Part shown: positions 3,253 through 57,769 of the stretch, one piece after another
How positions within the stretch are numbered: the stretch's first letter is position 1
How the letters are laid out: every line of letters starts with the position of its first letter
Assembly: GCA_963844965.1 (NCBI GenBank)
Contig: CAWJQC010000007.1
Coordinates: forward strand, 224,001-288,000
DNA from: an uncultured bacterium
Lineage (GTDB): Bacteria; Patescibacteriota; Minisyncoccia; UBA6257; 2-01-FULL-56-20
Direction of reading: 5' to 3'
Length of the DNA: 64,000 nt
Program-made: the position numbers and the translations under genes
The notes under the pieces: generated by a model
The model's input: only the letters and a program-made list of their open reading frames with translations
Databases searched by the model: none
Told to the model about the DNA's origin: nothing

Positions 3253-4429
3253 ATGGACTACAAACAAGAACTTCAGGAGCTTGAGGCTGAAGCCCGGCGG
3301 TTAGCCGGGCGGCTTTGACGTAGCGGGCAAGGAGCGAGAGATAGAAAAGTTGGAAGCCGAAATGTCCAGCGCAGGTTTTTGGTCGGACCGTGCGGCGGCA
3401 GACGAGAAAATAAAAACTCTTGGCGAGTTGCGTGATTTGGTTGATAAGTTTCATGTGATCGAGACCGGAATCAAAGAATTAAACGAGAAGGATATTACTC
3501 CTGCGCCTCCGAATGCCTTATCTCACGGAGTTATACCTACTCCTATTTCAAAATCTAAAGAATTAAAGGATGAGGATTTTACTTTGGTGTCTCCGGATTC
3601 CCTATCACACGGAGTTATACCCACTCCAATTTCTAAAACTTCCAAATTTTTCGAAATAAAAAAGAAACTCAGAGACCTTGAACTGACCACACTTTTTACT
3701 GGCAGGTATGACAAGCAGGCGGCCGTGCTTTCGGTGTATCCGGGCGCGGGCGGCGATGATGCCGAAGATTGGGCGCGGATGCTCGCTGAAATGTATGAAA
3801 ATTACGCCAAACGCCGCGGCTGGCAGCATAAAATGATTGACGACAATCCGCGCTCGCGAACATTTGAAGTTCGCGGCGCCTACGCTTATGGTTATCTGAA
3901 GAAAGAAGCCGGCGTTCACCGGCTCGTCAGAATTTCGCCGTTCTCGGCGAAGAAACTGCGGCACACGTCGTTCGCTTTGGTTGAGGTCGTGCCGGATCTG
4001 CCACCGGTTGAAGAGGCCAAGCTGCAAATTCCGGAAAAAGATCTGAAGCTGGAGTTTTCGCGAGCGGGCGGGCCGGGCGGCCAGAATGTGAACAAAGTGG
4101 AAACGGCGGTGCGGATAGTACACTTACCGACGGGGCTCGCCGTGAGTTCCCGCGCCGAGCGGGCGCAGGCGCAGAACCGCGAGCGGGCAATGAAACTCCT
4201 GAAGGCCAAGATATTCCAGCTGATGGAAAAGAATCAGGTGAAGGAATTGAGTGAGCTTCGGGTAAAGGTGAAACCGGAGTGGGGTAATCAGATCCGTTCT
4301 TACGTTTTGAATCCTTACCAGTTGGTGAAAGATCACAGAACCGAGGCGGAAACCGTGAGAGTTCACGAGGTTCTTGCCGGTGATTTGGACTCATTCATTG
4401 AAGCAGAGGCGGAATCCGGGCTAACTTAA
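3253..4429 (+). CDS. prfB: Peptide chain release factor 2 with a programmed +1 ribosomal frameshift (join 3253..3315, 3317..4429)
   Basis: The zero-frame [24 protein letters not shown] ends at the canonical CTT TGA C shifty stop (3313-3319) with an upstream SD-like GGGCGG. The +1 frame then continues with the SPF and GGQ motifs. Confidence 0.9.
3522..3640 (+). repeat. Imperfect tandem repeat inside the prfB N-terminal domain (two copies of [12 protein letters not shown])
   Basis: TCACGGAGTTATACC(T/C)ACTCC(T/A)ATTTC repeated about 75 bp apart; lower-GC insertion of roughly 25-30 codons relative to typical RF2 length. Confidence 0.6.
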
Positions 4430-11161: not shown

Positions 11162-11565
11162 ATGCCTCAGCGTGAAAAACCATTGATACTCGTCACCGAC
11201 GACGATAAGGACTACCGCGAAGCCGTTGTTCTGCAATTGCAGGCGGCCGGCTTTGACACCATCCAGGCAAAAGACAGCAAGGACTCAATTCAAAAAGCCA
11301 AGGAATCCAGCCTGATCTTATTCTTATGGACGTTAACATGCCGCCGGGTCTTAACGGCATTGATACCGCACTGGAGCTCAAAGAAACGCCCGAAACGAAG
11401 GATATTAAGATCGTTTTTCTGAGCGGTTTGGAGAATCCGTGGCCGCTTTTCGGCGGAGAAAGGGGAGACGTGAGCAGGGAAATGGGAATGGAGGATTACT
11501 TCATAAAGACGAAGGATTTCAGCGAACTGGTGGCGAAAATCAAGAAGATTTTGAACGTAACGTAG
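11162..11565 (+). pseudogene. Single-domain CheY-like response regulator receiver, frame broken by a 1-nt indel near 11298
   Basis: Two overlapping ORFs whose translations join into one receiver domain (LILVTDDD...KESS / PDLILMDVNMPP...). Confidence 0.65.
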
Positions 11566-11919: not shown

Positions 11920-13169
11920 ATGGCTGAATTAAAACGCGACGCCTCTTTTCTTAAAATAGAGATAGAAAAAGATCTCGCGCGGCAGGTGGACAAGGTCTCC
12001 GTCGTTTCCTTGGTTGACTTGCTGGTGGAGTACGCTTATATCTTGCGCGCTTCCGACATCCACATTCAACCCGAGGAAAATTCGTTGCGCATCCGTTACC
12101 GCATAGATGGTCTCCTCCAGGATATTTTCCAGAAGATGACCATTCGCAAGGACATCCAGCCCGAAATCATCAGCCGCATAAAAGTTCTCGCCGGCTTGCG
12201 CACTGACGAGCACCTTGCTTCGCAGGACGGGAGGATCAAGGTTAAGGTCAAGGATTTCGGCGAAATCAGCGTCCGTGTTTCCATCGTGCCGACGTACAAC
12301 GGGGAGAACGCCATTTTGAGGGTGCTTGCCGAAACGCAGGGATTTACCGTGAACGATTTGGGATTTTTGCCGAACGACCTGAAGAAAGTTACGCACGCCA
12401 TGACGAAGCCCTACGGTATGATCCTCGCGAACGGTCCGACCGGTTCCGGTAAGACAACGACCCTCTACACGATTTTAAAAACCTTGAACAAGCCGGATAT
12501 TTCCATAGTGACCATAGAAGACCCTATTGAGTACGCATTGCCGGGAACCTCGCAAATTCAGACCAACGCCGACATAGGATTCACGTTCGCGAGCGGTCTC
12601 AGATCAATTCTGCGCCAAGATCCTGAACATCATCATGGTGGGCGATAATCCGCGACGAAGAGACGGCGGGAATAGCGGTGAACGCGGCCCTGACCGGCCA
12701 CCTCGTGCTTTCAACTCTGCACACCAACGATTCAGCAACAACCTTTCCCCGGCTCATAGATATGGGTGTGCCGCCATTCCTCGTAGCTTCAACGGTTAAC
12801 GTGGCGATGGGCCAGCGTCTTGTCCGGATGATATGCCAGAAGTGTAAGCAGCCGCGTAATTTTAGCGAGATGGAAATAAAAAGTTTGGCGGAAATCATTC
12901 CGGAGTCGGCAAAATATCACGGCAAGTTTTTCATAGGGAAAGGATGCCCCGCCTGCAATGGAACCGGCTATATCAGCCGCACTGGCATACGCGAAGTGTT
13001 GGAAGTGAACGAGACAATCAGCCAGCTTATCATGAACCGCGCGAACGCCAAGCAGATAAAGGATGCTGCTGTCAAAGCCGGAATGACCACGATGACAGAA
13101 GATGCCTTGGAGCGCGCTTCCAAGGGAGTCACCTCCATTGAGGAAATTTTGCGCATTATACACGAGTAG
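11920..13169 (+). pseudogene. pilB: Type IV pilus assembly / type II secretion ATPase PilB/GspE, interrupted by two indels about 19 bp apart (near 12626 and 12645)
   Basis: N-terminal GspE N-domain, Walker A GPTGSGKTT; Asp box and the [13 protein letters not shown] His box lie in different frames; three frames must be spliced to recover DPDIIMVGEIRDEET. Confidence 0.8.
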
Positions 13170-13308: not shown

Positions 13309-14388
13309 ATGAACAAATTTCAGAGAATTCTTTCCCGATTATTTGACAGCGTCCCGCTTCAGGACAAAATTAATTTCGCGCGGCATATGGCGCTTATCAT
13401 AAAAGCCGGATTGCCGATATACCAGGGACTGGGGATTATCCGCGCCCAAACGACTTCCAAGGTGCTCCTTAAGGTGATAGACAGCGTTATGGAAGACGTG
13501 AACAACGGGAAGTTTCTTGCCGACGGGTTGGAAAAATTTGAATATCTTTTCGGGACTTTTTTTGTGAACATCATCCGCGTGGGGGAATCGAGCGGGACCC
13601 TCGCCAAGAATTTCTTGTATCTTGCCGAAGAACTCAAAAAATCCAAAGCGCTCAAAAGCAAGGTCACTTCGGCAATGATATATCCGCTTGTGATTTTTGC
13701 TATGACTTTGGGAGTGACGGGTTTTCTGGCGTTTTTCGTTTTCCCGAAACTTCTGCCGGTATTCGCGAGCTTGAACGTCAAGCTGCCCATAACCACCGTC
13801 ATAATGATGGGCGTCCTCCAGTTTTTGCGCGAGTATTTCATAGAGCTCATAATCGGGGTCGTCATTCTTGTTGTCGCAGTTAGGATGATTATTAAGTACG
13901 TAACGCCGATAAAGTTCCTTCTGGATAAGTTGATTCTTGTAACGCCGGTAATCGGGCCGCTTTCCGTTGATGTTAATATGGTCAATTTTACGCGCGTCTT
14001 TGGATTGCTTTTGAAGAGCGGCGTAAAAATCTTGGAGGCGGCCATGATAACATCAAATACTTTTGAGAATATCGTCTACAGACGGGCGCTCGTAGCCGCG
14101 AAAGATGAAGTTCAGAAAGGCGGCCAGCTCGCGACCTATATGGGCGAAAAAAAGAGATATTTTCCTCCGCTAGTGACCGGCATGATACGCATCGGTGAGG
14201 ATACCGGCAATCTGGAAGAAAACCTGGACTACCTTTCGGAATATTACGAGGACGAAGTTGATACCAAGCTGCACGTTTTGACGAGCGTTCTTGAACCCTT
14301 GATGCTGCTTTTCATGGGGCTTCTCGTCGGATTCGTTGCTTTGTCCATTATCACGCCAATTTACTCCATTTCGCAGGGCATCCAGTAG
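13309..14388 (+). CDS. pilC: Type IV pilus assembly / type II secretion platform protein PilC/GspF
   Basis: 359 aa; duplicated GspF domains, three TM segments, conserved GESSG motif. Confidence 0.85.
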   Translation: MNKFQRILSRLFDSVPLQDKINFARHMALIIKAGLPIYQGLGIIRAQTTSKVLLKVIDSVMEDVNNGKFLADGLEKFEYLFGTFFVNIIRVGESSGTLAKNFLYLAEELKKSKALKSKVTSAMIYPLVIFAMTLGVTGFLAFFVFPKLLPVFASLNVKLPITTVIMMGVLQFLREYFIELIIGVVILVVAVRMIIKYVTPIKFLLDKLILVTPVIGPLSVDVNMVNFTRVFGLLLKSGVKILEAAMITSNTFENIVYRRALVAAKDEVQKGGQLATYMGEKKRYFPPLVTGMIRIGEDTGNLEENLDYLSEYYEDEVDTKLHVLTSVLEPLMLLFMGLLVGFVALSIITPIYSISQGIQ

Positions 14389-14393
14389 CTCCA

Positions 14394-14528
14394 ACTTTCT
14401 ATTTTTGAGAACCGGCGTCACGAATGCTCCAGCGGCATTCGTGCGCCTGCATCTCGCTCCGACGGCGTCCGATTAAAATCGGACGACCAAGCCCGTCGGA
14501 GCTCCGATAGCTTCTCAAAAATAGAAAG
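14394..14528. repeat. About 135-bp palindromic element: 19-bp perfect terminal inverted repeats (AACTTTCTATTTTTGAGAA / TTCTCAAAAATAGAAAGTT) enclosing three internal hairpins
   Basis: Seen directly in sequence; MITE-like or complex terminator/structured RNA. Confidence 0.6.
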
Positions 14529-14639
14529 TTTCCGCGATGGGATTAAGGTGTTTTGCTGACGCAAAACAGCCTTTGTGAAGCAACACCCGGCGCTTTTGGA
14601 AATAAAAATCGCCCCGATCTGTCTGATCGGGGCGCGCTG

Positions 14640-15173
14640 TCAGGGTTTCCACTCTGGCGGAAATTTGTAAATGTCGTATGTCTCAAGGAGTACGCCGAAA
14701 GTCTCACTTTCTATACGGCGTTTTTCAAGTACGGCTTCAAAGACCAGTTCCAGCCCGGCTTTTTTATAGTAGGGCTGGTGACCGCGAGCGAGAACCCGGG
14801 CCACATCCAGGACTGTTTCCGGCGCAGATTGTCCCGCTAATTGTACGATGTCCGAAAATTGGTATGTTCGCCGACCGCCTACATCGCAGTGATTCACAAT
14901 AACGTACTCAATGCTGTAACTTATGCCGTCTCCATCCTGTCCCCATATGGGGTTGATCTTGAATTCTCGGAAAACAGGTCTGAGTGAAAGATTAAGATTG
15001 TCAAATGGCCGGACTGCTATGTATTTTACTTTGTCGGTAATCCAGCGGCGCAGAAGTTCGCTTTCGCTTACATTTCTTCGCGACGCTTCCGCGATTCTCT
15101 CCGAAGGATTGCCGATTTTCCTTGAGAGCCATGGTATCTCGGATAAGTATTCTCGTGCCTTTGACCACTTCAT
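14640..15173 (-). CDS. Hypothetical protein (177 aa) on the opposite strand inside the pilus locus
   Basis: Long ORF with no recognisable family. Confidence 0.4.
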   Translation of the reverse strand: MKWSKAREYLSEIPWLSRKIGNPSERIAEASRRNVSESELLRRWITDKVKYIAVRPFDNLNLSLRPVFREFKINPIWGQDGDGISYSIEYVIVNHCDVGGRRTYQFSDIVQLAGQSAPETVLDVARVLARGHQPYYKKAGLELVFEAVLEKRRIESETFGVLLETYDIYKFPPEWKP

Positions 15174-15346
15174 ATTGCCTCCTCACCCTGTAGGATATTG
15201 GTTTGTGTGCAACTCCCCGTCAATCGCTCTATAAGGTCATGTCGGAGAGCTGGATAAAGTTTAGCGTCGGTATTCACTATGTGTCAAGCGAAAAATTATT
15301 GTTATGAGTCGCGCGGCAGGTACGGCATGCAAAATCAATATTGAAA

Positions 15347-15357
15347 ACGTGTTAGAA
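15347..15357 (+). promoter_or_regulatory. Candidate extended -10 promoter element (TGTTAGAAT) for the minor-pilin operon
   Basis: TGnTAGAAT about 20 nt upstream of an AAGTGGAG RBS and the ATG at 15378. Confidence 0.3.
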
Positions 15358-15377
15358 TATAAGTGGAGTATCTTCTG

Positions 15378-19955: not shown

Positions 19956-21094
19956 TCATTGTCCGAGCGCGGGCAGGTATTCCGGTCCATAGGTGGCGGT
20001 AATGTCGCCGTCCGCGTCGTAGACATCCATCTTATAGTAGTATGGATCGTATAGCGTTTGGTCCAGGATTTTTATGGAGTAGGGACCGCCTGACGGCGGA
20101 TTTTCTTGCGTAAGCACCGCTAGCCACGGTCCGTTTTGGTCAGCCGAGCGCGAAACCACGAATTTCTCCGTTCCCAAGGGAAGGTTCTGCCAACCGATGT
20201 CAATATTGTTATCCATATGGTCTACCCAAAAATTCTCAGTTTGCGGCTGGCCGTAGCCCGAAATGCCGCCTTGCGGATTGTAATAGGGAATTCCGGACGG
20301 CTTTGGCGTAGGCGTCGGCGTCTGAGTTGGCGTCGTTGATGTCGGCGTTGGGGATGGCGATTGGCTTGGGGTGCCCGTGCTTTGCGTCGTTGATGATGGC
20401 TGCGTACTTGGAGGCGTCGTTGGCGGAGGAGTGTTGGTTCCCGTGGTCGGCGTCGGTGCCGTGGTAGATGGCGTGGATGTTGAAATTACCGTCGGCGTTA
20501 TGGGCGATGTCCAGAGAACGGTTTCTTCGGACGGTCCGCCGGTTTCGGTGCTTGAACCGGTGCCGGCGCCGTTATTTGTTCCGCTTGTGCCACTAGCAAC
20601 TGCCTCCACGTAATAAACGTACGTCTCCATTCCCCTCGCTTGTTTTGCCGAGTGAGATGGAAAAATTCCCGCTTTCTATGTCGCCTGAGAATATTCCGCC
20701 ATCTATGTTAATTCCGCCAGCCGTTCCTGCGCCGGTCGCGCCACCACCTCCCGTGCCCCCGCTGATTCCGCCGCCTTTACCAGAAACAATATCTTGCAGG
20801 TTAACGGTTTTCCAGAGCTCCCACTGCGTTGTCCCGGCCTTCGCGCGGTAGAATATTTATGCGTGCGGTGTTCGCCGGTATATTATCCCAGCGCATGATC
20901 AGGACATCCTCACCGCCGCTCCGCTGAATTTCTACGGTCAGTTTCGGTTCGTTGGGCTTGGCAACGGGCGTGACAGTTTCTTGGCGAAAAATCGTGAAAA
21001 TATCCTGTCCGGTGATTCTGTAGTATATGAAAGTAACGCTCGCAAGCCCGACGACAAAAAGGATGGCGAAGTAAATTTTGCTTTTTACTGTCAC
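19956..21094 (-). pseudogene. Membrane-anchored Gly/Thr/Pro-rich low-complexity surface protein; single gene spread over three frames (breaks near 20630 and 20830-20880)
   Basis: Signal-anchor ORF 20801..21094, a Gly-rich bridging frame, and the Thr/Pro-rich ORF 19956..20630 are contiguous only if two 1-nt shifts are allowed. Confidence 0.5.
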
Positions 21095-21172: not shown

Positions 21173-22334
21173 CTATTTTCTGGATTCCAGGTTCTCTATC
21201 AGCGCGATTTCCAAGGGTACAACCGCGAATGGGCTGTAGCGCATTTCGGAGTAGGCGCGGATGAGGGACTGGAGAAGTTTTACGGCGGATGCCGGTTCAA
21301 TAAGCGTGCCGAGTTGTTTGACTCTTTCTATCTCTTCGCCGGTCAACTCGCCGCGGAGCGCGGTTTCCGTGGCCGGACTTATCTTCAGCGCCAGAATTTT
21401 CCTTACATAATGGATTAGGTCTTTCGTGAATTGGGTCAAATTTTGCCCTTCTTCGTTAAGTTCCGCGAGATAGTTGATGCTTCCTTTGAGGTCTTTTTTT
21501 AAAATTAATTCCGCCAGCCCATCCACTTTTTTGAGGCCGACGCGGCCGGTGATTTCTTTCGGCCGCTGCCAGATCAATCCCGACGTGTTTTGCGGTCGGG
21601 ACTCCGACCCCGCCAGTGGCGGGCGTCGGAGTTTCCAATGAACTTATCTGGTCTAAGAGCGATTCGGCGTCGCGGAAACTTCCTTCCGCGGCGGCTGCGA
21701 TGAGCTCAAGCGCCGGTTTGTCAATCTGAATTTTTTCCGCTTTCGCCATCATCGCCAGTTTTTCCATGATCTTCGTTTTCGGAAGTTTTTTAAAGAGGAA
21801 ACGCTGAGTGCGCGAAACAATGGTCGCGGGCAATTTTTCGTATTCGGTCGTCGCGAGTACGAGAACGGCGTGCGCAGGCGGCTCTTCCAGGGTTTTGAGG
21901 AGCGCGTTAAAAGCGGGCGTCGTGAGCATGTGTACCTCGTCTATGATGTAAACTTTGTATTCGCCGGACGCCGGAGAGGTTCTGATGCTGTCTTTGAGGT
22001 TGCGGATCTCGTCAATGCCGCGGTTGGAGGCGGCGTCTATTTCAATGACGTCAAAAGAATTCTGCGCGTCAATTTCTTTGCAATGGCGGCATTCATTACA
22101 TGGTTCGCCAAGCTTTCGGAATTCGGCGTCGTCGCGGCGCTTCTCGCAGTTTAATAGCTTGGCGATGAGCCGCGCAGTCGTGGTTTTTCCGGTCCCACGC
22201 GAGCCGTAAAACAAATAGGCGTGGCCAAGCCGCCCCGCCTTTGCGGCGTTCTTCAGAATTTGCGCGTTCGTTTCCTGCCCAAAAGCTCGTCAAGTCTCTT
22301 TGGGTCGGTATTTGCGATAGAGGGCGAGTGCCAT
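21173..22334 (-). CDS. dnaX: DNA polymerase III subunit gamma/tau; frame disrupted by an in-frame TGA at codon 15 (22290-22292) and a 1-nt frameshift around 21580-21660
   Basis: MALALYRKYRPKET*RAFGQETNAQILKNAAKAGRLGHAYLFYGSRGTGKTT (conserved N-terminus and Walker A), DEVHML Walker B, SRTQ sensor; the C-terminal domains continue in another frame. Confidence 0.8.
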
Positions 22335-26398: not shown

Positions 26399-27442
26399 AT
26401 GATTTTTCAAACCGTTCGCATAATAGTTCTAACGACTATCGCATTTGTCGTCGCCCTGATCACGACGCCCTTTTGGAGCAGATTTCTCATCAAAAGTAAA
26501 CTCAGCAAGCAGATCAGGAGTGGGACGGACACGCCGATCTTCCAGAAATTCCATGAAAAGAAAGCCGGCACGCCGACTGGCGGCGGCATAATCATCTGGT
26601 CTACCGTTCTGGGTCTCGCCGTTATCTTCGGGATACTTAACAGATTTTTTGACGGTTTCTGGACGTATCTGAATTTCATCAATCGCGCGGAAACGTATCT
26701 GCCGCTCGCGACCCTTTTCATCGCTGCCATACTTGGATTGCTTGATGACTGGTTCGGGACCCTGCGCATCGGCGGCGCGGCTGGCGGCGGGCTTAAAATC
26801 AGGCACAAATCCATTTTATACATAATTATTGCGGCAATCGGCGCCTGGTGGTTTTACTTCAAGCTCGGCTGGGATGTGATAAACGTCCCACTGGTAGGCA
26901 GTTTTCAGATCGGTTGGTGGTATATACCGATCTTCATATTCATCATTTTTGCAAGCGCTTTTTCGGCGAACGAAACCGACGGCTTGGACGGGCTTTTGGG
27001 CGGCGTTTCGCTCTTCGCTTTCGTCGCCCTGACTACCGTCGCTTTCGTGCTTCACCGTTACGATCTCGCGGCTTTCGGCGGCGCGATGATCGGGGCACTC
27101 CTGGCATTTCTCTGGTACAATATTTATCCCGCGAAGTTTTTCATGGGCGACACCGGCTCAATGTCCCTGGGTATCACGATAGGCGTGACTTCCATGCTCA
27201 CGAACACCACCCTGCTCCTGCCGTTTTTCGCGATAATTCTGGTTATTGAATCCATTTCTGTGCTTGTGCAGGTCTTGAGCAAAAAACTGCGGCACAAGAA
27301 AATTTTTCTCTCAACGCCGATCCATCATCATTTTGAAGCGCTCGGCTGGCCCGAGTCGCAGGTGACGATGAGGTTTTGGATCATTTCGGCGGTGTTCGCC
27401 TCGTTGGGACTCGTGATTTTCTTTTTGTCCAGATTCCTGTAG
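26399..27442 (+). CDS. mraY: Phospho-N-acetylmuramoyl-pentapeptide transferase
   Basis: Ten-TM protein with NETDGLDGL and other MraY signatures. Confidence 0.9.
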   Translation: MIFQTVRIIVLTTIAFVVALITTPFWSRFLIKSKLSKQIRSGTDTPIFQKFHEKKAGTPTGGGIIIWSTVLGLAVIFGILNRFFDGFWTYLNFINRAETYLPLATLFIAAILGLLDDWFGTLRIGGAAGGGLKIRHKSILYIIIAAIGAWWFYFKLGWDVINVPLVGSFQIGWWYIPIFIFIIFASAFSANETDGLDGLLGGVSLFAFVALTTVAFVLHRYDLAAFGGAMIGALLAFLWYNIYPAKFFMGDTGSMSLGITIGVTSMLTNTTLLLPFFAIILVIESISVLVQVLSKKLRHKKIFLSTPIHHHFEALGWPESQVTMRFWIISAVFASLGLVIFFLSRFL

Positions 27443-27476
27443 GAAGGTGCTAAGTGTTTTGCTTTTTGAGTGAGAT

Positions 27477-27505
27477 TTGACGAGGAATGTCTGGGTTGAT
27501 ATAAG
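27477..27505 (+). promoter_or_regulatory. Candidate sigma70-like promoter (TTGACG, 17 nt spacer, TATAAG)
   Basis: Consensus-like hexamers with 17-bp spacing upstream of the small zinc-ribbon gene. Confidence 0.4.
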
Positions 27506-27555
27506 TATAGTAGCGATAAATCAAATACTATTACTATCCTTGCGAGGAGGTAGCT

Positions 27556-27777
27556 ATGGCGCAACGCCCGCCAGTGGCCTTTGTGATACTTCTGCGAGTG
27601 CAGGAGATTGACATGACCGGAAAGATAGAACAACTTTTAAAAGAACTCCGTCTCGGGATAGAAGGAGAAGGCAGATTTAATTCCTTGCCGCGTCGATGCG
27701 GCAAGTGCGGGACGATAGTATATGCCAACAGGACAAAATTCCGTTGCCCATATTGCGGAAAAGTTATCAAGTTGTAG
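27556..27777 (+). CDS. Small zinc-ribbon protein (CxxC...CxxC)
   Basis: GAGGAGG RBS 6 nt before the ATG; RRCGKCG...CPYCGK motifs. Confidence 0.5.
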   Translation: MAQRPPVAFVILLRVQEIDMTGKIEQLLKELRLGIEGEGRFNSLPRRCGKCGTIVYANRTKFRCPYCGKVIKL

Positions 27778-27851
27778 TTTTTCAAAAGCTTCTCTGTTGG
27801 CTGCAGTTTAAGGCCGCGCATTAGACGGAGCAACAGAAGTAAGACAGAATG

Positions 27852-27886
27852 CCCGCGGGCGTGATACCCGCGGGATTTATTTTTGC
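27852..27886 (+). terminator. Rho-independent terminator (CCCGCGGG stem)
   Basis: CCCGCGGG-CGTGATA-CCCGCGGG followed by ATTTATTTTTG. Confidence 0.7.
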
Positions 27887-27954
27887 CAATGCAAAATTAT
27901 CATCGGGCCTCACCATTTTCTCTCCAGATCTTTATAGAAGCGTTCCTACTGGTA

Positions 27955-27984
27955 TTGACAAAGAGCGGCATTGCGCCGCATACT
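27955..27984 (+). promoter_or_regulatory. Candidate promoter (TTGACA, 18 nt spacer, CATACT)
   Basis: Perfect -35 hexamer; downstream AAGGAGG RBS and the ATG at 28022. Confidence 0.35.
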
Positions 27985-28021
27985 TTCTACGGTTGGTATT
28001 TTACAACCAAGGAGGATAGTT

Positions 28022-28390
28022 ATGCGCAGGAATGACGCTGGTTCCGGCTTGTCCAAAGTATTAATTGTGGTAGCTGTAGTAGCTGCGATTTCATTCATCA
28101 TTGCGATGGTTGTCCTTGAATATCAATCACATGCCAGGCCCGATGTGGAGTTGAGCGGCTGGGTCAGGAACGTAAACATTGTTTATGACTCTACTATTGT
28201 CGCTGTTGAGAAAGACGGCGACATCACGCCGCAGTCATATGAGCTGATCGGCAAACACTCTGAACTTTGGAAGGGCGAGCATGTTTGGCTAAGGCTTCAC
28301 TTCCGTCCTTACAGAGAGGAATACGAAATCGTCGGCTTCAAGCGACTCGGCCCCGACGACAAATCCAGGCCGTTGATAGTAAGTCATTGA
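28022..28390 (+). CDS. Hypothetical membrane-anchored protein
   Basis: AAGGAGG RBS; N-terminal TM helix; 122 aa (the ORF track extends it upstream without RBS support). Confidence 0.45.
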   Translation: MRRNDAGSGLSKVLIVVAVVAAISFIIAMVVLEYQSHARPDVELSGWVRNVNIVYDSTIVAVEKDGDITPQSYELIGKHSELWKGEHVWLRLHFRPYREEYEIVGFKRLGPDDKSRPLIVSH

Positions 28391-28403
28391 GTTTTCGCGG
28401 AAA

Positions 28404-28436
28404 AGCCCCACCATTTGGTGGGGCGGTTCTTTTGCG
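28404..28436 (+). terminator. Rho-independent terminator
   Basis: CCCCACCA-TTTG-GTGGGGCGG followed by TTCTTTTG. Confidence 0.65.
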
Positions 28437-28460
28437 GCGCATATTTTTATAAAAAAAGAG

Positions 28461-28486
28461 CCCTCGCCGGTTCCGACCGGCGAGGG
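28461..28486 (-). terminator. Rho-independent terminator for the minus strand (CCCTCGCCGG stem with an A-run on plus = U-run on minus)
   Basis: Perfect 10-bp stem; AAAAAAAG immediately 5' on the plus strand. Confidence 0.5.
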
Positions 28487-28515
28487 GTTTGGAGAATTGA
28501 AAGTGAGCGGGGTGC

Positions 28516-28644
28516 TCAAGAAGCGTGGACGATGTAGTCCTTATGACTGGAATACGGCGCCAGCCCGAAGGGCGCAGCGGCTCCGTGAGTGAACCAGAAC
28601 GCCCTTTTGGAACTTTGAACATTGTTCTCGGCCATCCTCAACAT
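28516..28644 (-). CDS. Candidate small protein (42 aa, MLRMAENNVQSSKRAFWFTHGAAAPFGLAPYSSHKDYIVHAS)
   Basis: Not in the ORF track (under 60 aa); GGAAAGG RBS-like sequence upstream; stop sits directly before the minus-strand terminator. Confidence 0.25.
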   Translation of the reverse strand: MLRMAENNVQSSKRAFWFTHGAAAPFGLAPYSSHKDYIVHAS

Positions 28645-28857
28645 TTTAAGCTGGCCTTTCCCGTGGTCATAGTCCTTTTTGGGGTTAAAGCCGTCCCTGA
28701 GTATTTCTTCCTCTGAGCTGTCTTAATTATAGCAGATAACAAATTTAATGTCAAGCCCATTCCCAAGCGCCAAAAGCGGTGTTAATCTTTATAAAACAAG
28801 TCGTTTATTGGATGGTTTTTTCTATTTTCTACTTTCTAATTTCTATTTTCTAAACCA

Positions 28858-36342: not shown

Positions 36343-36685
36343 ATGCTAAAAAAGATTTTAAAATCCAGGATAGTCAGCTCTATTTTTTTGCTGGATCCTG
36401 CTTTTGGTTCTGGGCGGAACGATCTGGGTGTATTTCGCCCTGCGTCATATCGCGCCGCCGCTGATTCTTCATTTCAACAACCTCGCCGGGATTAACCAGA
36501 CCGGGAATTTGGCGGATTTATTGGAGATCGGTGCCACCGGCATTGTTTTCGTGCTCGTGAACTTTTTTATAGCGTTGGAGCTGGAGAATAGGGACGCGTT
36601 CGGCGGCAAGCTTCTGGCCGCGGCGACCCTATTCCTCGCGATTTTGATTTTCATTGGCTTTGCCGCTATAATTTCTGCAAATTAG
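36343..36685 (+). CDS. Small polytopic membrane protein; ATG at 36343 and body (from 36404) are in different frames, joined if the T7 run at 36383-36389 were T6
   Basis: ORF track body 36404..36685 starts on TTG; an upstream ATG ORF ([15 protein letters not shown]...) ends shortly after the T7 run; removing one T fuses them. Confidence 0.4.
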
Positions 36686-37175: not shown

Positions 37176-37488
37176 ATGTCTAAATTTTCGATAATCGAGA
37201 CGGGAGGAAAACAATATAAAGTTTCCGCCGGTCAAAAAATTAAGGTGGAAAAACTGAACGCGGAGGCGGGCGATTCTTTTGTTTTTGACAAGGTTTTGCT
37301 TGTTGTGGATGGCGAAAAAGTTGAGATTGGCACGCCATATATCGCCGGCGCGAAAGTGGAAGCCAAAGTTTTGCGCCAAGCCCGCGAACGCAAGAAAATC
37401 GTTTTCAAATACCATTCCAAAACGAGATATAAAAAAGAAAAAAGGACACCGACAACATTTTACGGAGGTGTTAGTGGAGAAAATTTGA
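37176..37488 (+). CDS. rplU: 50S ribosomal protein L21; frame shifts within the A6-G-A6 tract at 37431-37443 and the true C-terminus (KKKKGHRQHFTEVLVEKI) is in the +1 frame
   Basis: N-terminus MSKFSIIETGGKQYKV is canonical L21; the conserved C-terminal tail is only found in the overlapping ORF ending at 37488. Confidence 0.85.
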
Positions 37489-46092: not shown

Positions 46093-46419
46093 TTACTCCT
46101 TTAACGATATCGTGTGTTTCGGGACGAATAGGTGCTCAATCGTTTCCAGCGCAACGCCGCCGTCTTCCACGACGTCGTGCAGAAGGGCGGCGGCAAGCAG
46201 ATGGTAATCGCGGACACGGAACGTTTCAAAGAGAAAATTGAACACGGCGAGCGGATGGACGAAGTACGGATATGATTCAATTCCGAATTTTTTCTGCCCC
46301 CGATGCGCCGCTTCAGCCATGTTGTATGCCCGCCAGAGCGCCGATTGTTCGGCGCAGGTAAGTTGCCTGGCGTTCTTCATGAATCGGCGCTTTGCGGCTT
46401 TGAGCGATGGGTAACGCAT
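46093..46419 (-). CDS. N-terminal half of an HD-domain (p)ppGpp-hydrolase-like protein
   Basis: AHRGQKKFGIESYPYFVHPLAV...LLAAALLHDVVED matches the RelA/SpoT HD hydrolase N-terminus; ends at TAA in the middle of the domain. Confidence 0.55.
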   Translation of the reverse strand: MRYPSLKAAKRRFMKNARQLTCAEQSALWRAYNMAEAAHRGQKKFGIESYPYFVHPLAVFNFLFETFRVRDYHLLAAALLHDVVEDGGVALETIEHLFVPKHTISLKE

Positions 46420-52349: not shown

Positions 52350-52468
52350 GTTTACTTAAGTATACCATATGGCCGTAGATAACAGCTTTCTCGGTTGGCC
52401 GCCCGCCCGAAACTTTTATCTTCAGAAAGTCGTATAATAAAGGTAATAAATAATTAATAACAAAAACC

Positions 52469-54491
52469 ATGAAGAATACTTCCTGGACGGTGGGTGTTTT
52501 GGTGGTTTGTGTTTCTGTAAGTTTGCTTGCGGCGTCAAGCGCTTACGCGGCTACGCCGACGCTTTCGCTCGCGGTGACGAGCGGGGATTCTGTGCAGATA
52601 AACGTGATCGGCGATTCGAATTTTCCGGTCGTGTTTTATTACAATGTCGGCAGTTCTTCCGGAACGAACACAACGACGCTCGGTAGTACGAACTCCAGCG
52701 GCGTTTTTTCAACAACGATAAGCACGGGCGCGTACGCGATAAACTCCAGCTATCCGGTATATGTCGTAGTGGATGGTCAGCAGTCAGCTACACAAACCTG
52801 GCCTTACGGCGCCAGTACTTCCTCGGGTACAAGCGGTACGCCAGTACTCAGCCAGACAAGCGTTACGGTCGGTATCGGGCAGTCAGTGACCGTGACTTCG
52901 CAGGGAGGCAGCGGCATCTATTTGGTGTCCAATTCCAATTCTTCTGTGGCCGCCGCTTACGTATCTGGGACACAGGTTGTTGTTACCGGAAGCCAGCTGG
53001 GTTCAACGACAATGACAATCTGTTATGTGGGTACCGCTTCCAATTGCACGAATTTGTATGTGAATGTGCAGAGCGGAACCGTGCAGGCGCTCACGTTCAG
53101 CCCGAACAACATTTCCTTATCGGTCGGTGGCAGTCAATCTGTGACCATAAGCGGCGGGAGTGGAACGTATAGTTTGTCTTCCAATTCAAACTCCAGCGCC
53201 GTTTCCGTGAATTTATCGGGAAACACGCTTACGGTGACAGCCATCGCGGCCGGGAGCGCCAATATAACGGCATGCGACACGTCGGGAAATTGTAGTGTCT
53301 TATATGTGACGGTGGGCGGAAGCTCAACAAGCGGTTCCTTGTCTTTCAGCCAGACGAATCCGTCTATAGCGGTCGGACAGGTTATAAGCGTGAGTGTTTA
53401 CGGCGGAAGCGGCTATTACGTGTCCGCTAACACGAACTCCGGCATCGCCTCGCAAACGCTGAATGGCAACACACTCTCAATCTCTGGTCTGGCAGCCGGA
53501 GCGACGACGATCACCGTATGTTCGGCGGTGAACGGCTGCGGCTACCTTTATGTCACCGTCGGTTCGTCATCCGGCACGAGCCAGACAATTACTTTTAGCC
53601 AGACGAATCCGTCCATAGCGGTCGGACAGGTTATAAGCGTGAGTGTTTACGGCGGGAGCGGGTATTACGTAACGGGCAACACGAATTCCAGTGTCGCTTC
53701 GCAAGCCCTTAATGGGAGCATACTTTCCATCTCCGGATTGGCAAGTGGCGCCACGACTATCACGGTATGTTCCGTGGCTAATGGCTGTGGTTCGATTTAC
53801 GTCACGGTCGGTTCGTCGTCGGGCTCGAGTATGGCCATCACCTTTGGCACGACCAATCCCACTATTACAACGGGGCAAAGTATGAACATCTCGCTTTCTG
53901 GCGGTTCCGGTTATTTCGTTTCGTCTAATCCAAGTACGAATATTGCGCAGGCAAGCGTTACGGGCAATACGCTTGCGCTCTATGGCGTGGGCGTCGGCTC
54001 CGATTCGCTTACGATTTGCGCGAGTTCCGGCGGCTGCAACACGCTTTACGTCACAGCTGACAAGCGTGACGACCGTTCCGACCACCACGCAGACACAGCA
54101 AACAGTTGTTTCGAGCGCTTGGATAACCGAGATCCAGACAATGCAGACCCAGCTCACAAATATCCTCGCCCAAATCCAAACTTTACAAAGTAACCTTGCA
54201 AATCTTCTTACGCAAGTTACCGCCGGCGCGCAAAGTCCAAGCGTAAGTGGCACGACGACCGCGCAATCCAGCGGCTATAAATTCTACAGCCCGCTCTCGC
54301 TTGGCTCGAGCGGCGCAGACGTCACGGCATTGCAGACCCTCTTGGCCGCGAAGGGATATTACACTGGTTCCATAACCGGTTACTACGGTACGGCGACGAT
54401 GGACGCGGTGATGGAATACCAGACGGCTCATGGTATCACGCCGCTCGGCAACGTGGGTCCCGCCACCCGCGCGGCGCTGAACGCGGAATAA
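52469..54491 (+). CDS. Large secreted surface protein: signal peptide, multiple Ig-like repeats, Thr/Gln-rich coiled-coil linker, C-terminal peptidoglycan-binding domain; 1-nt frameshift near 54050
   Basis: Tandem near-identical ~80-aa repeats; C-terminal GADVTALQTLLAAKGYYTGSITGYYGTATMDAVMEYQ matches PG_binding_1, but only in the overlapping ORF 53943..54491. Confidence 0.7.
53320..53830 (+). repeat. Near-identical ~246-bp tandem duplication encoding Ig-like domains
   Basis: Blocks starting about 53335 and 53580 share more than 90% nucleotide identity. Confidence 0.7.
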
Positions 54492-54597: not shown

Positions 54598-55692
54598 ATG
54601 ATCAAATATTTATCAAGAACAAATCCCAGACTTCTTCAAGGCACGGCGCTCCTGCGGCTTGACTTCAACACGGAAGACGACTGGCGGATGCGGGCGGTTT
54701 TGCTGACAGTCCGCTTTTTATTAAAATACGCCTCAAAGATTATTATCGTAAGCCACAGGGGGCGGCCAAAGGGCCGCGACAAGAAATTCAGCCTGAAAGG
54801 AAGCGGTTTGCGCCTGCAAAAACTTCTGGGCCGCCGGGTTAAGTTCGTGCCGGACTTAAACTTCGCTTATATTAAGAAGGCAGTCGCTGATTCGCCGCAC
54901 GGCTCCATTGTTCTTTTGGAGAATTTGAGATTTTGGAAGGGGGAGGAGGCGAATGATTCGAAGTTCGCGAAACAATTGGCGTTGCTTGCCGATTATTTTG
55001 TGAACGACGCGTTCGCGGTTTCGCATCGGGCGAACGCTTCGGTCGCGGCAATCACGAAATTCCTGCCGAGTTATGCCGGGCTTGAATTGGAAAGGGAGAT
55101 CAAGTTCCTCGGGGGCGTGATGCGCCATCCACGCCATCCGTTTGTTTTTGTCGTAGGCGGGGCGAAAGCAAGCGACAAGCTCGGAGTTATGAAATATTTC
55201 AGAAGCAAGGTCGATTGGTTCCTTGTCGGCGGCGCTGCGGGAAATACGGTTCTCGCCCTTAAAGGAATGGGTATGAAAAAATCTCTTAGGGACAAGGACA
55301 AAAAAGATTTAAAAGGACTACGCGGGATTCTGAGGTATGAGAATGTTATATTGCCTGTGGATTTGAAATGGCATAACGGCGCCGCGCTTGATATCGGTCC
55401 GAGGACAATCGGAGCGTTCACCGGGAAAATCCGCCGCGCGAGAACTATAATTTGGAGCGGTCCGGTCGGCTATTTTGAGAAGCGCGGTTTTGACAAGGGG
55501 AATCTTGCGGTAGCGCGCGCGATAGCGGCGAACCGCAAGGCGTTCAAGCTCACCGGTGGCGGCGAAACGGTGATGTTCCTAAAGAAACACCATTTAGATA
55601 AGAAGTTTAGTTTTATTTCAACCGGCGGGGGAGCAATGCTTGATTTTTTAGCCGGAAAAAAACTTCCTGGGATAGAGGCATTAAGTAAATGA
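54598..55692 (+). CDS. pgk: Phosphoglycerate kinase
   Basis: N-domain VSHRGRPKG and hinge/C-domain motifs; TATAAT at 54579-54584 upstream; the ORF track start (54562) lies inside the upstream terminator, so ATG 54598 is preferred. Confidence 0.85.
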   Translation: MIKYLSRTNPRLLQGTALLRLDFNTEDDWRMRAVLLTVRFLLKYASKIIIVSHRGRPKGRDKKFSLKGSGLRLQKLLGRRVKFVPDLNFAYIKKAVADSPHGSIVLLENLRFWKGEEANDSKFAKQLALLADYFVNDAFAVSHRANASVAAITKFLPSYAGLELEREIKFLGGVMRHPRHPFVFVVGGAKASDKLGVMKYFRSKVDWFLVGGAAGNTVLALKGMGMKKSLRDKDKKDLKGLRGILRYENVILPVDLKWHNGAALDIGPRTIGAFTGKIRRARTIIWSGPVGYFEKRGFDKGNLAVARAIAANRKAFKLTGGGETVMFLKKHHLDKKFSFISTGGGAMLDFLAGKKLPGIEALSK

Positions 55693-56316
55693 AAAGTTTA
55701 TATAAAAAAGTGGCATTGGAATTAGCGGAAAAGGCGGGTAAAACTATGCTTGCTTATTTTACATTGGGGATGAAAAAGAATTGGAAAGAAGACAACACCC
55801 CCGTTACCGCAGCCGACATTGAAATTAACAAACTCGTTATCAAAACCATCCGCAAGAATTTTCCTGATCACGACGTGCTTGGCGAAGAGTTGAGCGATAT
55901 GAAAAGAGGAAGCGAGATGGTGTGGGTGTGCGATCCGATTGACGGCACAATCCCGTTTTCTCATGGGATTCCAACGAGCACCTTCTCGCTTGCGCTTGTT
56001 TGGCGCGGGAAGCCGATTATGGGCGTTGTTTATGACCCATTTCTCAAAAGAATGTTTTTTGCAGAGAAAGGCGGAGGCGCATTTCTCTGTAGCAAGAGAA
56101 TATACGTGAATTCGAAAAAAGAATTGCGGAGCTCTCTCGTAGGTATGGAGGTATGGAGGGAGGCACAATTCAATTTATCCCCGCTTCAGATAGCCATGAA
56201 GAACGAGGGCGCAAAAATAATCATTCCTTGCTCGACGGCGTATATGGGAATGCTTGTTGCGTGTGGCGAAGCCTCGGCAAGCATTTTTCCGGGATCTACC
56301 GCGCACGATGGCGCCG
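55689..56316 (+). pseudogene. Inositol monophosphatase-family protein (SuhB-like), 3' end truncated by the IS insertion
   Basis: WVCDPIDGT metal-binding motif; sequence is homologous up to the WDxAAG-equivalent (HDGAV) and is then replaced by IS-derived sequence from 56317. Confidence 0.7.
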
Positions 56317-56376
56317 TGAAAAGGACCCTTTTCTTTAGACAGTCATTCGACGATTTTTTCGCCGATTTTTTTCACT

Positions 56377-57162
56377 TTACCACGCCGCTAACTGCTCGGC
56401 AAACACGACTGGCGGCATCTTGAGGGCGGAGTGGATCCGCGTGTGGTTGTACTGCCACAAGGTGCTGTAGATCTCCGCCACGAGCTCGCCGAAGGTCCCG
56501 AACCGGTTGGGATCACCGAGGTCAATCTTGAACTTGTCATAGAACGATTCCTGGTAGCCGTTTTCCCATGGGGCACCGGGCCGCGACCGCGAGATCGTGA
56601 TGCCACAGTCCCCCAGTGTATCGGTGAACGCTCGTGCCTTGTACTCGCTGCCGTTGTCCGAATGGAAGATGACCGGATGCGGATGGTGGAAAAGCGCGTT
56701 GGCCAGGGTCTGTATCGTGAGGGGCGATCCTTTCCGCAACGCCACATGGACGCCCATCAATCGTCTCGTGAAAAGATCGAGTATCGTGGACACGTACACT
56801 TTCTTGCCGCGATACAGGAACTCCGTGAAATCGGTTGCCCAGACGTGGTTCGCGTACGAGGGCATGATGGCAAGTAAGAGGTTCGGAAAGGCCCGCGATG
56901 CCTTTGATTTCCGGTATTTCCTGCCTCGCCTCCGGTACGGCCTTATGCCGAAGATTCGCATGACGCGCTGCGCTCGCGGACGGCTCACGCCCAGAGCTTG
57001 TCCCAAGCGCCGGGAACCGTATGCCGGATGGCGCTGCAATTCTTCTTCCATGCGGATCTTGAGCGCCCAATCTTTCTTGTCCTGCCGTGATACGTAGTAG
57101 AGCGATGCCCGCGAGACGCCCATGGCCCGCGCCATGGCGGACTTGTTCCGCTTTTCCGTCAA
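56377..57162 (-). CDS. IS3-family transposase OrfB (DDE integrase core)
   Basis: rve-type DDE motifs including HSDNGSEY; in the -1 frame relative to orfA at CAAAAAAAG. Confidence 0.85.
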   Translation of the reverse strand: MTEKRNKSAMARAMGVSRASLYYVSRQDKKDWALKIRMEEELQRHPAYGSRRLGQALGVSRPRAQRVMRIFGIRPYRRRGRKYRKSKASRAFPNLLLAIMPSYANHVWATDFTEFLYRGKKVYVSTILDLFTRRLMGVHVALRKGSPLTIQTLANALFHHPHPVIFHSDNGSEYKARAFTDTLGDCGITISRSRPGAPWENGYQESFYDKFKIDLGDPNRFGTFGELVAEIYSTLWQYNHTRIHSALKMPPVVFAEQLAAW

Positions 57163-57422
57163 TTCTTTTTTTGGGCCTGGGAGAGCTTCACGGTGAGCTC
57201 GCCCACCACTTCAAACAGCTCCCTGTTCTGCTTCTGGAGACGGCTGAACTCGCCCCAGGAAGGGACGCCCGATGCTCCTGCGCCTAGCCAATTGTAGATG
57301 GTGGACTCGTGCAAACCGTGGTCCTTCGCAGCCTGCGCTACGGGGACTCCTTCTTCCTTCACCCGGCGGAGGATGTCCGCCTTCACTTCCTTCGCAATCC
57401 GATGCCCTTTTTTGTTGCTCAT
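57159..57422 (-). CDS. IS3-family transposase OrfA (HTH)
   Basis: Helix-turn-helix (AQAAKDHGLHESTIYNW); ends LSQAQKKN at the slippery site. Confidence 0.85.
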   Translation of the reverse strand: MSNKKGHRIAKEVKADILRRVKEEGVPVAQAAKDHGLHESTIYNWLGAGASGVPSWGEFSRLQKQNRELFEVVGELTVKLSQAQKKN

Positions 57423-57436
57423 GACACAATGGTAGT

Positions 57437-57769
57437 TTGTTTCGACCTTTGTGTCTAAATTACGGGGTCCGGGTCAAAACAAAAGAGGTCGTCAGAGTCC
57501 TCTCGAAGGCCGGCTTCACGCAACAGGAGATACTTGATGCCATCTGGAACGCCGACTTTGTAAAAGATGAGAACGGCGGAGCCGTCGTGAACGCCATGTA
57601 CGAAGCAAAGATTCCGGTCGCCGATATCGTCGGAGTGCTTATGAGGGAAAAGATCGATCCCGACGACCTCGACGGCGAAATGGGCGGAGAAGAAGTTGAC
57701 ACGCGCACCCGCGTTGAGATTCTCCATTCGCTCTTTGAGGCGATTGACGGCGAGAAAGAGACAGCTTAA
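57437..57769 (+). CDS. Hypothetical acidic small protein; annotated start lies inside the IS terminal repeat
   Basis: 110-aa ORF; true start is probably downstream of 57476. Confidence 0.3.
   Translation: MFRPLCLNYGVRVKTKEVVRVLSKAGFTQQEILDAIWNADFVKDENGGAVVNAMYEAKIPVADIVGVLMREKIDPDDLDGEMGGEEVDTRTRVEILHSLFEAIDGEKETA

What the first reader, a model, noticed from the sequence alone, without database searches (positions are those of the whole stretch)
21173..22334. dnaX carries an in-frame TGA at a conserved N-terminal position plus a frameshift before domain III
The translation reads MALALYRKYRPKET*RAFGQETNAQ..., with TGA at 22290-22292 where homologues have F/D, and the following conserved GQE is in the same frame. 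Later the conserved ITGRVGL...LAELILKKD...FTKDLIHYVRKIL region is only found in another frame; the switch falls between 21580 and 21660. prfB in this window shows that UGA is a stop here, so stop-codon reassignment is not an explanation. The lesions are consistent with T4-to-T2 plus C2-to-C1 homopolymer contractions (net -3) and a further 1-nt indel, i.e. either sequencing errors or a genuinely damaged essential gene. Unlike E. coli dnaX, frameshifting here would be needed to make full-length tau, not to truncate it.
Basis: partly seen in the sequence, partly recalled or inferred. Interest (0 to 1): 0.5.

Follow-up and report, generated by a model that had tools for sequence, protein, structure and literature searches.

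The report
dnaX broken by assembly indel errors
The clamp-loader gene dnaX of this Patescibacteria (Liptonbacteria-like) genome is interrupted by three single-base insertions or deletions that are almost certainly consensus errors in the assembly, so the finding is ordinary.

Summary
dnaX (22334..21173, minus strand) has an in-frame TGA at 22292-22290, and its C-terminal third lies in the +1 frame.

There are three 1-nt lesions:
- an insertion at about 22296-22304;
- a compensating deletion at about 22277-22279. The TGA is only the out-of-frame reading of the 24 nt between these two;
- an extra A at 21553-21555.

Removing them gives a 386-aa DnaX that is colinear with its closest homologue and 89% identical to it. 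dN/dS is 0.06, and there are no changes at 142 near-invariant positions.

The same kind of lesion occurs at least 11 times in 7 genes of the window, including ribosomal protein L21. For L21, an independent assembly of the same organism (Logan, run ERR10755942) carries the intact gene with exactly the predicted repair.

UGA is a stop codon here: prfB has a CTT TGA C site, and 9 of 40 genes end in TGA. None of the lesions lies at a slippery site.

Best explanation: uncorrected indel errors in a probably long-read assembly (about 0.85). The dnaX lesions themselves could not be checked against reads.

The parts
21173..22334 (-). dnaX (DNA polymerase III gamma/tau, short 386-aa form), interrupted as deposited
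   Evidence: After repair it scores NF004046 424.9 bits (cutoff 400) and TIGR02397 393.5 bits (cutoff 250). It is 89% identical to P0001 over the full length, and both are 386 aa.
22296..22304 (-). Lesion 1: one extra base within CCCAAAGAG (the exact base is ambiguous). It shifts reading from frame 0 to frame +1.
   Evidence: The frame +1 reading PKRLDELLG matches the homologues. The frameshift-aware alignment places an insertion at 22303.
22290..22292 (-). In-frame TGA. It is a by-product of reading the 24 nt between lesions 1 and 2 in the wrong frame.
22275..22280 (-). Lesion 2: one missing base at TTGGG^CAGG (GGG/GGC Gly followed by CAG Gln). It returns reading to frame 0.
   Evidence: The frameshift-aware alignment places a deletion at 22279.
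21553..21555 (-). Lesion 3: an extra A (AA to AAA) in GCCGAAAGAAATCACC. It shifts reading to frame +1 for the last 126 codons.
   Evidence: The DNA alignment to relative L001 shows a single-base gap here. Searches agree.
21456..21458 (-). Premature TAA that ends the frame-0 reading after lesion 3. It is the end of the 252-aa fragment deposited as a protein (P0241).
3253..4429 (+). prfB (RF2) with its natural programmed +1 site CTT TGA C at 3313-3319. This serves as a control showing that UGA is a stop codon.
   Evidence: TIGR00020 prfB scores 353 bits against prfA at 188 bits.
37429..37441 (+). The same class of lesion in rplU (L21). The window has A6-G-A6. The independent Logan contig L085 has A5-G-A6 and an intact 103-aa L21.
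12624..12648 (+). Two 1-nt insertions 22 nt apart in pilB/T2SSE, within the RQDP(D/N)IIMVGEIRD motif.
20618..20853 (-). Two 1-nt insertions (about 20850-20853 and about 20618-20644) in the secreted repeat-protein gene immediately downstream of dnaX.
11300..11306 (+). A 1-nt deletion splitting a response-regulator receiver domain.
   Evidence: The repaired protein regains Response_reg profile positions 1-111.
36383..36398 (+). A 1-nt insertion (in the T7 run or the adjacent GG) near the 5' end of a small membrane-protein gene.
46124..46130 (-). A 1-nt deletion splitting an HD_4-domain gene.

Best explanation
dnaX is an ordinary, functional, single-ORF gene in the organism. The three interruptions are uncorrected single-base insertion/deletion errors in the consensus of the deposited assembly. 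That assembly is a 331,718-nt contig, most likely built from noisy long reads. The in-frame TGA is not a mutation to a stop codon. It appears only because a spurious extra base (22296-22304) and a spurious missing base (about 22278) put 24 nt out of frame. A third spurious A (21553-21555) throws the last 126 codons into the +1 frame.

**Shown:** the lesions, their single-base nature, the widespread occurrence of the same lesion type in the window, and the absence of one of them (rplU) from an independent assembly of the same organism.

**Inferred:** that the three dnaX lesions are also absent from the reads, and that the sequencing platform was long-read.
For: 1. **Repair restores a normal protein.** Removing or adding one base at each of the three sites gives a 386-aa protein. 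It is colinear with P0001, the same length, and 89% identical.
2. **No sign of decay.**
   - dN/dS against the relative is 0.062, with 0.074 before lesion 3 and 0.031 after it. Twelve intact neighbouring genes gave 0.05-0.16 where it could be computed.
   - There are 0 deviations at the 142 columns that are at least 97% conserved in 120 homologues.
3. **The lesions are not specific to dnaX.**
   - Frameshift-aware alignment of 24 orthologues found 9 single-base frameshifts in 5 genes.
   - Pfam-split domains add a response regulator and an HD-domain gene.
   - Their repaired versions regain fuller domain hits.
   - The total is at least 11 lesions in 7 genes in 64 kb, including the essential rplU.
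4. **Independent assembly.**
   - The as-is 108-aa L21 exists only on the 331,718-nt NCBI/ENA contig.
   - The predicted repaired 103-aa L21 exists exactly in a Logan contig of run ERR10755942.
   - That contig is 99.77% identical to the window and has A5 where the window has A6.
5. **The read set is indel-prone.** The two Logan contigs differ from the window by further indels and mismatches at CGG(C/T)GCC sites. At those sites the window is the version that keeps the ORF.
6. **Known failure mode.** Published background describes long-read consensus indels causing frameshifted gene calls in MAGs (PMC9262707).
Against: - No read-level or independent-assembly evidence could be obtained for the dnaX sites themselves. 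No Logan dnaX fragment was retrievable.
- The lesions are clumped. Two pairs lie 22-25 nt apart, five fall within 20.6-22.3 kb, and none fall in 22.4-36.3 kb.
- The lesions are insertion-biased (8 to 3).
- Only some sit in long homopolymers. The dnaX ones are in runs of 2-4, which is not the classic homopolymer error profile.
- The sequencing platform was not verified.
Confidence: 0.85

Rival explanations
1. The lesions are real. This population carries a recently inactivated or split dnaX, and likewise pilB, rplU and the other genes. That would fit a decaying lineage, or one in which function is supplied by a second copy or by a host or partner.
For: - Several lesions are concentrated in a few genes (3 in dnaX, 2 in pilB, 2 in the neighbouring gene) while about 20 compared genes have none. 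Genes released from selection would show this pattern.
- Lesion 3 lies in the variable linker between domains II and III, where a split might be tolerated.
Against: - There is no relaxation of constraint: dN/dS is 0.06, and there are 0 changes at 142 near-invariant sites.
- The 24 nt between lesions 1 and 2 still encode the conserved LDELLG in the unread frame.
- The first usable start after the TGA (the TTG at 22214) would remove the first 40 residues, including the invariant YRP..GQ motif.
- The essential rplU is hit as well, and that lesion is absent from an independent assembly of the same organism.
- No second dnaX is present in the window.
Confidence: 0.08
2. This is programmed recoding. 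Ribosomal frameshifting (+1, -1, +1), transcriptional slippage or UGA read-through yields full-length DnaX from the interrupted gene.
For: - Programmed frameshifting is known in this very gene in E. coli, and a prfB +1 site is present in this window.
- The region just 5' of lesion 3 is unusually structured (z = -5.1), and lesion 3 sits in the loop of a 7-bp GC hairpin.
Against: - None of the three sites is slippery. There is no X XXY YYZ heptamer, no CUU UGA C (the context is ACU UGA C), and no long A/T run of the kind needed for transcriptional slippage.
- Three separate events in alternating directions would be needed.
- The closest relative (L001) and all 120 listed homologues are uninterrupted at these positions, so nothing is conserved.
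- UGA read-through alone would leave 8 wrong residues in an invariant motif.
Confidence: 0.02
3. This is a consensus chimera. Reads from two or more co-occurring strains were merged, and local misalignment produced clustered indels. It is a special case of artefact.
For: - The lesions cluster in pairs 22-25 nt apart and in a 1.7-kb stretch.
- The sample contains sequence variants of the same organism at 99.8% identity.
Against: The differences from the Logan contigs are confined to one sequence motif rather than spread as strain SNPs. This cannot be told apart from plain consensus error without reads.
Confidence: 0.05

Closest known systems
Frameshifted gene calls from uncorrected indels in long-read (Nanopore/PacBio CLR) assemblies and MAGs
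   Same: - Single-base insertions and deletions are scattered over unrelated genes, including essential ones.
- The coding sequence is otherwise pristine.
- At least one lesion (A5 to A6) is absent from an independent assembly.
- The contig is very long for an uncultured Patescibacteria genome.

Background: PMC9262707.
   Different: Many of the lesions here, including all three in dnaX, sit in runs of only 1-4 bases and occur in tight pairs. The textbook case is long homopolymers. The platform was not verified.
E. coli dnaX programmed -1 ribosomal frameshift (A AAA AAG with a downstream hairpin, making gamma from the tau mRNA). Recalled from established knowledge.
   Same: The gene family is the same. 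A frame change occurs inside the ORF, and a stable hairpin lies nearby.
   Different: - There is no slippery heptamer at any lesion.
- Here the shifts would be needed to make any functional protein, not a shorter isoform.
- They are not conserved in the closest relative.
- This DnaX has no tau-specific C-terminal domains to truncate.
prfB programmed +1 frameshift (CUU UGA C)
   Same: It involves an in-frame UGA early in an essential gene. The genuine example is present in this same window at 3313-3319.
   Different: The dnaX context is ACU UGA C, with no re-pairing possibility. A +1 shift there would run into a stop after 13 codons unless a second, -1, shift followed.
UGA reassignment in Patescibacteria (genetic code 25 of Gracilibacteria/Absconditabacteria). 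Recalled from established knowledge.
   Same: The organism is a Patescibacteria and has an in-frame UGA in a conserved gene.
   Different: RF2 is encoded and autoregulated through UGA. Nine of 40 genes end in TGA. Neither Gly nor Trp at that codon would restore the surrounding out-of-frame residues.

Membership tests
DnaX (DNA polymerase III gamma/tau), short N-terminal form | Sequence match above the curated cut-off of the family models | tested here: met
   The repaired protein scores NF004046 424.9 bits (cutoff 400) and TIGR02397 393.5 bits (cutoff 250).
DnaX (DNA polymerase III gamma/tau), short N-terminal form | Conserved motifs: N-terminal YRP..GQ, Walker A GxxGxGKT, the Cys4 zinc module, and an SRC-type sensor | tested here: met
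   YRKYRP..LLGQE, GSRGTGKTT, CNECRHC and SRTQRF are all present and invariant among the 12 aligned sequences. There are 0 deviations at 142 near-invariant columns.
DnaX (DNA polymerase III gamma/tau), short N-terminal form | A single uninterrupted ORF | tested here: not met
   As deposited, the gene is cut into three frame segments with an in-frame TGA. The database holds it as a 252-aa fragment.
Programmed -1 frameshift of the E. coli dnaX type | A slippery heptamer X XXY YYZ at the shift site in the zero frame | tested here: not met
   The sites read CCCAAAGAG, TTGGGCAGG and GAAAGAAATC. None is a heptamer in register.
Programmed -1 frameshift of the E. coli dnaX type | Conservation of the shift site in close relatives | tested here: not met
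   L001 and all listed homologues are uninterrupted at these sites.
Programmed +1 frameshift of the prfB type | CUU UGA C with an upstream SD-like element | tested here: not met
   dnaX has ACU UGA C. The motif is met only in the window's own prfB at 3313.
UGA-sense genetic code (tables 4/25) | Absence of RF2 and use of UGA inside conserved ORFs | tested here: not met
   prfB is present. TGA terminates 9 of 40 genes. No other in-frame TGA was needed in about 30 genes aligned to relatives.
Genuine pseudogene | Relaxed selective constraint (raised dN/dS, changes at invariant sites) | tested here: not met
   dN/dS is 0.06, and 0 of 142 invariant sites are changed. The test has little power against a very recent inactivation.
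Genuine pseudogene | Lesions reproduced in independent sequence of the same organism | not testable with these tools
   No independent contig covering dnaX was retrievable. For the analogous rplU lesion the test was done, and the lesion was not reproduced.
Assembly consensus indel artefact | The same lesion type spread over unrelated genes, including essential ones | tested here: met
   At least 11 single-base indels occur in 7 genes, including dnaX, rplU and pilB.
Assembly consensus indel artefact | Lesion absent from an independent assembly or from reads | tested here: inconclusive
   Met for rplU. Untested for the three dnaX sites.

The most novel reading that the evidence does not exclude
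The three dnaX lesions are real in the dominant genotype. Under that reading, this Liptonbacteria-like organism would live with a split or crippled clamp-loader ATPase. It would make an N-terminally truncated ATPase piece plus a separately translated domain III, or it would depend on a partner. The frameshifts in pilB, rplU and the other genes would then mark a genome in active decay.
Probability: 0.05. Interest if true: 0.6.

Novelty: not a real feature. Interest (0 to 1): 0.08.

Why it matters
The biology is of little consequence: dnaX is most probably intact.

The practical point is about data quality. At least 7 of roughly 65 genes in this window are frameshifted, including two essential ones. 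The public protein databases already hold the resulting fragments: a 252-aa 'DnaX' and a 108-aa 'L21' with a false C-terminus.

Any scan of this contig for pseudogenes, recoding or gene loss will produce false positives unless the assembly is polished or corrected for frameshifts.

If the lesions were real, a naturally disrupted clamp loader in an ultra-small bacterium would be remarkable. The evidence points the other way.

Tried and rejected
- **Genome-contig scan.** I queried with the repaired protein.
- **Metagenome contigs DNA scans.** One 26-mer gave no match. The other matched only a holB-like gene, apparently the delta-prime paralogue. No same-species contig is held there.
- **Exact look-ups of window proteins.** I tried the DUF4015 neighbour with two alternative starts, the 153-aa pilin-like gene, the 797-aa gene, the 252-aa, 134-aa and 97-aa fragments, and P0241. 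None is on record, and the window's own contig is not retrievable.
- **Exact look-ups of repaired proteins.** I tried dnaX, the response regulator, the HD gene, the membrane protein, pilB (5 variants) and the dnaX-downstream gene (5 variants). They were not found. Only the repaired L21 was.
- **Literature search for ERR10755942.** Nothing was found, so the platform is unverified.
- **A shared sequence motif at the lesions.** I considered GANTC, GATC and GGYRCC. No motif was convincing for the window's lesions. A motif (CGGYGCC) is apparent only for the errors in the Logan contigs.
- **Programmed frameshifting at lesion 3.** I considered this because of the strong local RNA structure. I rejected it because there is no slippery site and no conservation in L001.
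- **Selenocysteine or read-through at the TGA.** I rejected this because the eight codons around the TGA are out of frame.

Full report
**1. Observation**

On the minus strand an ATG at 22334 opens MALALYRKYRPKET*RAFGQETNAQ..., with TGA at 22292-22290. The same frame then continues through the whole AAA+ module to a TAA at 21458-21456. The C-terminal domain (..EITGRVGLKKVDGLAELILKKD..FTKDLIHYVRKIL..) is in the +1 frame and ends at 21173. The finding's coordinates and its two main statements are therefore correct.

**2. Anatomy of the lesions**

- **Lesions 1 and 2.** The +1 frame across the TGA reads PKRLDELLG, against the homologues' PKKLEELLGQE. The segment from P11 to Q20 has the same number of residues as in every homologue.
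  - So the N-terminal defect is one extra base within CCCAAAGAG (22304-22296) plus one missing base at TTGGG^CAGG (about 22278).
  - The TGA is merely the wrong-frame reading of the 24 nt in between.
  - It is not a net -3 contraction.
- **Lesion 3.** A DNA alignment with the closest relative shows a single-base gap at GCCGAAAG-AATCACC against the window's GCCGAAAGAAATCACC.
- **Independent placement.** A protein-to-DNA aligner that allows frameshifts places the three events at 22303 (insertion), 22279 (deletion) and 21553 (insertion).

**3. What the gene is**

- The repaired 386-aa protein passes the NCBIfam DnaX models: NF004046 at 424.9 bits (cutoff 400) and TIGR02397 at 393.5 bits (cutoff 250).
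- Its best hit is P0001. That protein is 386 aa and 89% identical, and it sits on NCBI contig JBFOMW010000736.1 of GCA_040960625.1. Next come Candidatus Liptonbacteria and other Patescibacteria DnaX proteins of 366-393 aa.
- The relative's locus is syntenic with the window over at least 12-42 kb.

**4. UGA is a stop codon**

- prfB lies at 3253-4429 with the canonical CTT TGA C +1 site at 3313.
- It scores 353 bits on TIGR00020 prfB, against 188 bits on prfA.
- Nine of 40 genes end in TGA.

**5. No sign of decay in dnaX**

- dN/dS of the repaired gene against the relative is 0.062. It is 0.074 upstream of lesion 3 and 0.031 downstream. Twelve intact neighbours gave 0.05-0.16 where it could be computed.
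- The repaired protein deviates at none of the 142 columns that are at least 97% conserved among 120 homologues. Individual homologues deviate at 0-2.
- Three neutral indels would normally be accompanied by a number of substitutions. None is visible.

**6. The lesions are not specific to dnaX**

Frameshift-aware alignment of 24 orthologues from the relative, together with split Pfam domains, gives this census:

| Gene | Position | Lesion |
|---|---|---|
| Response regulator | about 11300-11306 | deletion |
| pilB | 12626 and 12648 | two insertions |
| Secreted repeat protein downstream of dnaX | about 20850 and about 20627 | two insertions |
| dnaX | 22303, 22279, 21553 | insertion, deletion, insertion |
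| Small membrane protein | 36383-36398 | insertion at a T7 run |
| rplU (L21) | 37429-37441 | insertion, A6GA6 |
| HD_4 gene | about 46124-46130 | deletion |

- The repaired response regulator, HD protein and L21 regain longer, higher-scoring domain matches. For example, L21 goes from profile positions 2-85 to 2-99.
- The total is at least 11 single-base indels in 7 of roughly 65 genes, or about 1 per 6 kb.

**7. Independent sequence of the same organism**

- The 252-aa DnaX fragment (P0241), the 797-aa protein and the frameshifted 108-aa L21 are in NCBI/ENA, each on a single contig of 331,718 nt. This is evidently the window's own record.
- A Logan assembly of run ERR10755942 contains the same organism.
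  - L082 is 99.86% identical to the window over 2,810 nt.
  - L085 is 99.77% identical over 2,170 nt.
- My predicted repair of L21 (...TRYKKKKGHRQHFTEVLVEKI, 103 aa) exists exactly in that Logan assembly. The contig shows A5 where the window has A6. At least one lesion of this class is therefore specific to the window's assembly.
- Conversely, the Logan contigs carry their own indels and mismatches, all at CGG(C/T)GCC sites. At those sites the window keeps the ORF.
- Both observations point to an indel-prone read set. Frameshifted gene calls from consensus indels are a documented property of long-read MAGs (PMC9262707).

**8. Recoding considered**

- None of the three sites is a slippery heptamer, a CUU UGA C site or a long homopolymer.
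- Three shifts of alternating sign would be required.
- The closest relative and all listed homologues are uninterrupted.
- The strongly structured RNA around 21540-21650 (z = -5.1) belongs to a lineage-specific 20-codon linker insertion. Lesion 3 falls in a hairpin loop there, but the relative has the same region without any frameshift.

**9. What remains open**

- I could not retrieve any independent sequence across dnaX itself.
- The sequencing platform is unverified.
- The lesions are clumped. Two pairs lie 22-25 nt apart, and five lie within 1.7 kb. They are also insertion-biased and mostly in short runs. Local low coverage, strain mixing or modified-base miscalls could explain this, but it cannot be tested here.

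**10. Verdict**

The best explanation is an assembly consensus artefact (0.85). Genuine inactivation stands at about 0.08, a strain-mix chimera at about 0.05 and programmed recoding at about 0.02. Interest is low.

Noticed in passing
window 3253-4429 (+), site at 3313-3319: prfB (RF2) has the canonical programmed +1 frameshift. It reads [21 protein letters not shown]-stop in one frame, with CTT TGA C, then continues in the +1 frame.
   Followed up: yes
window 21540-21650 (-): The dnaX linker carries a lineage-specific insertion of about 20 codons (ETPTPATGGVGVPTAKHVG), shared only with the closest relative. It folds into three stable hairpins (-54.5 kcal/mol, z = -5.1). It is more conserved at the nucleotide level between the two species, with identical runs of 26 and 16 nt, than the rest of the gene. 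Most other homologues lack it, and a few carry unrelated inserts at the same position. Its purpose is unknown.
   Followed up: partly
window 39928, 40713 and 36526-36535, compared with L082 and L085: All differences between the window and the Logan contigs of run ERR10755942, apart from the L21 A-run, fall at CGG(C/T)GCC, a GGYRCC-like motif. This looks like motif-specific miscalling, possibly from a base modification. A third GGCGCC at 40968 is unaffected.
   Followed up: partly
window 56377-57473 (-): An IS3-family transposase has an HTH orfA (57473-57159) and an rve orfB (57210-56377) in overlapping frames, the usual programmed -1 arrangement. The adjacent inositol-monophosphatase gene (55689-56423) matches only profile positions 6-214 of 271, so the IS may have truncated it.
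   Followed up: partly
window 11.3-12.7 kb and 20.6-22.3 kb: The single-base lesions are clumped. Three fall within 1.4 kb and five within 1.7 kb, with two pairs only 22-25 nt apart. The stretch 22.4-36.3 kb has none. Insertions outnumber deletions 8 to 3.
   Followed up: partly
window 19956-21094 (-), compared with L001 11764-13356: The secreted repeat protein downstream of dnaX is about 378 aa here once repaired, against 530 aa in the relative. The middle of the relative's protein, roughly residues 210-419, which may be where its Big_7/fn3 Pfam hits lie, has no counterpart here and is replaced by a Thr/Pro/Ser-rich low-complexity stretch.
   Followed up: no
window 27442-28840 and 14388-15363: Two intervals of about 1-1.4 kb have no convincing gene and no Pfam hit. 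The first replaces a 646-aa gene present in the syntenic relative. They could be degraded or heavily frameshifted genes, or strain-specific DNA.
   Followed up: no
window 52454-54491 (+): A 574-aa ORF rich in Ig-like domains overlaps by about 300 nt a 182-aa ORF that ends in a PG_binding_1 domain, in another frame. This may be one more frameshifted gene. No relative was available to test it.
   Followed up: partly
L084 13300-13838 (JGI contig Ga0181520_10009105): A holB-like gene, apparently the delta-prime paralogue, in an unrelated metagenome shares an exact 26-nt stretch (CTTGGCCACGCCTATTTGTTTTACGG, encoding LGHAYLFYG) with the window's dnaX. This probably reflects strong codon-level conservation of the motif.
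   Followed up: no
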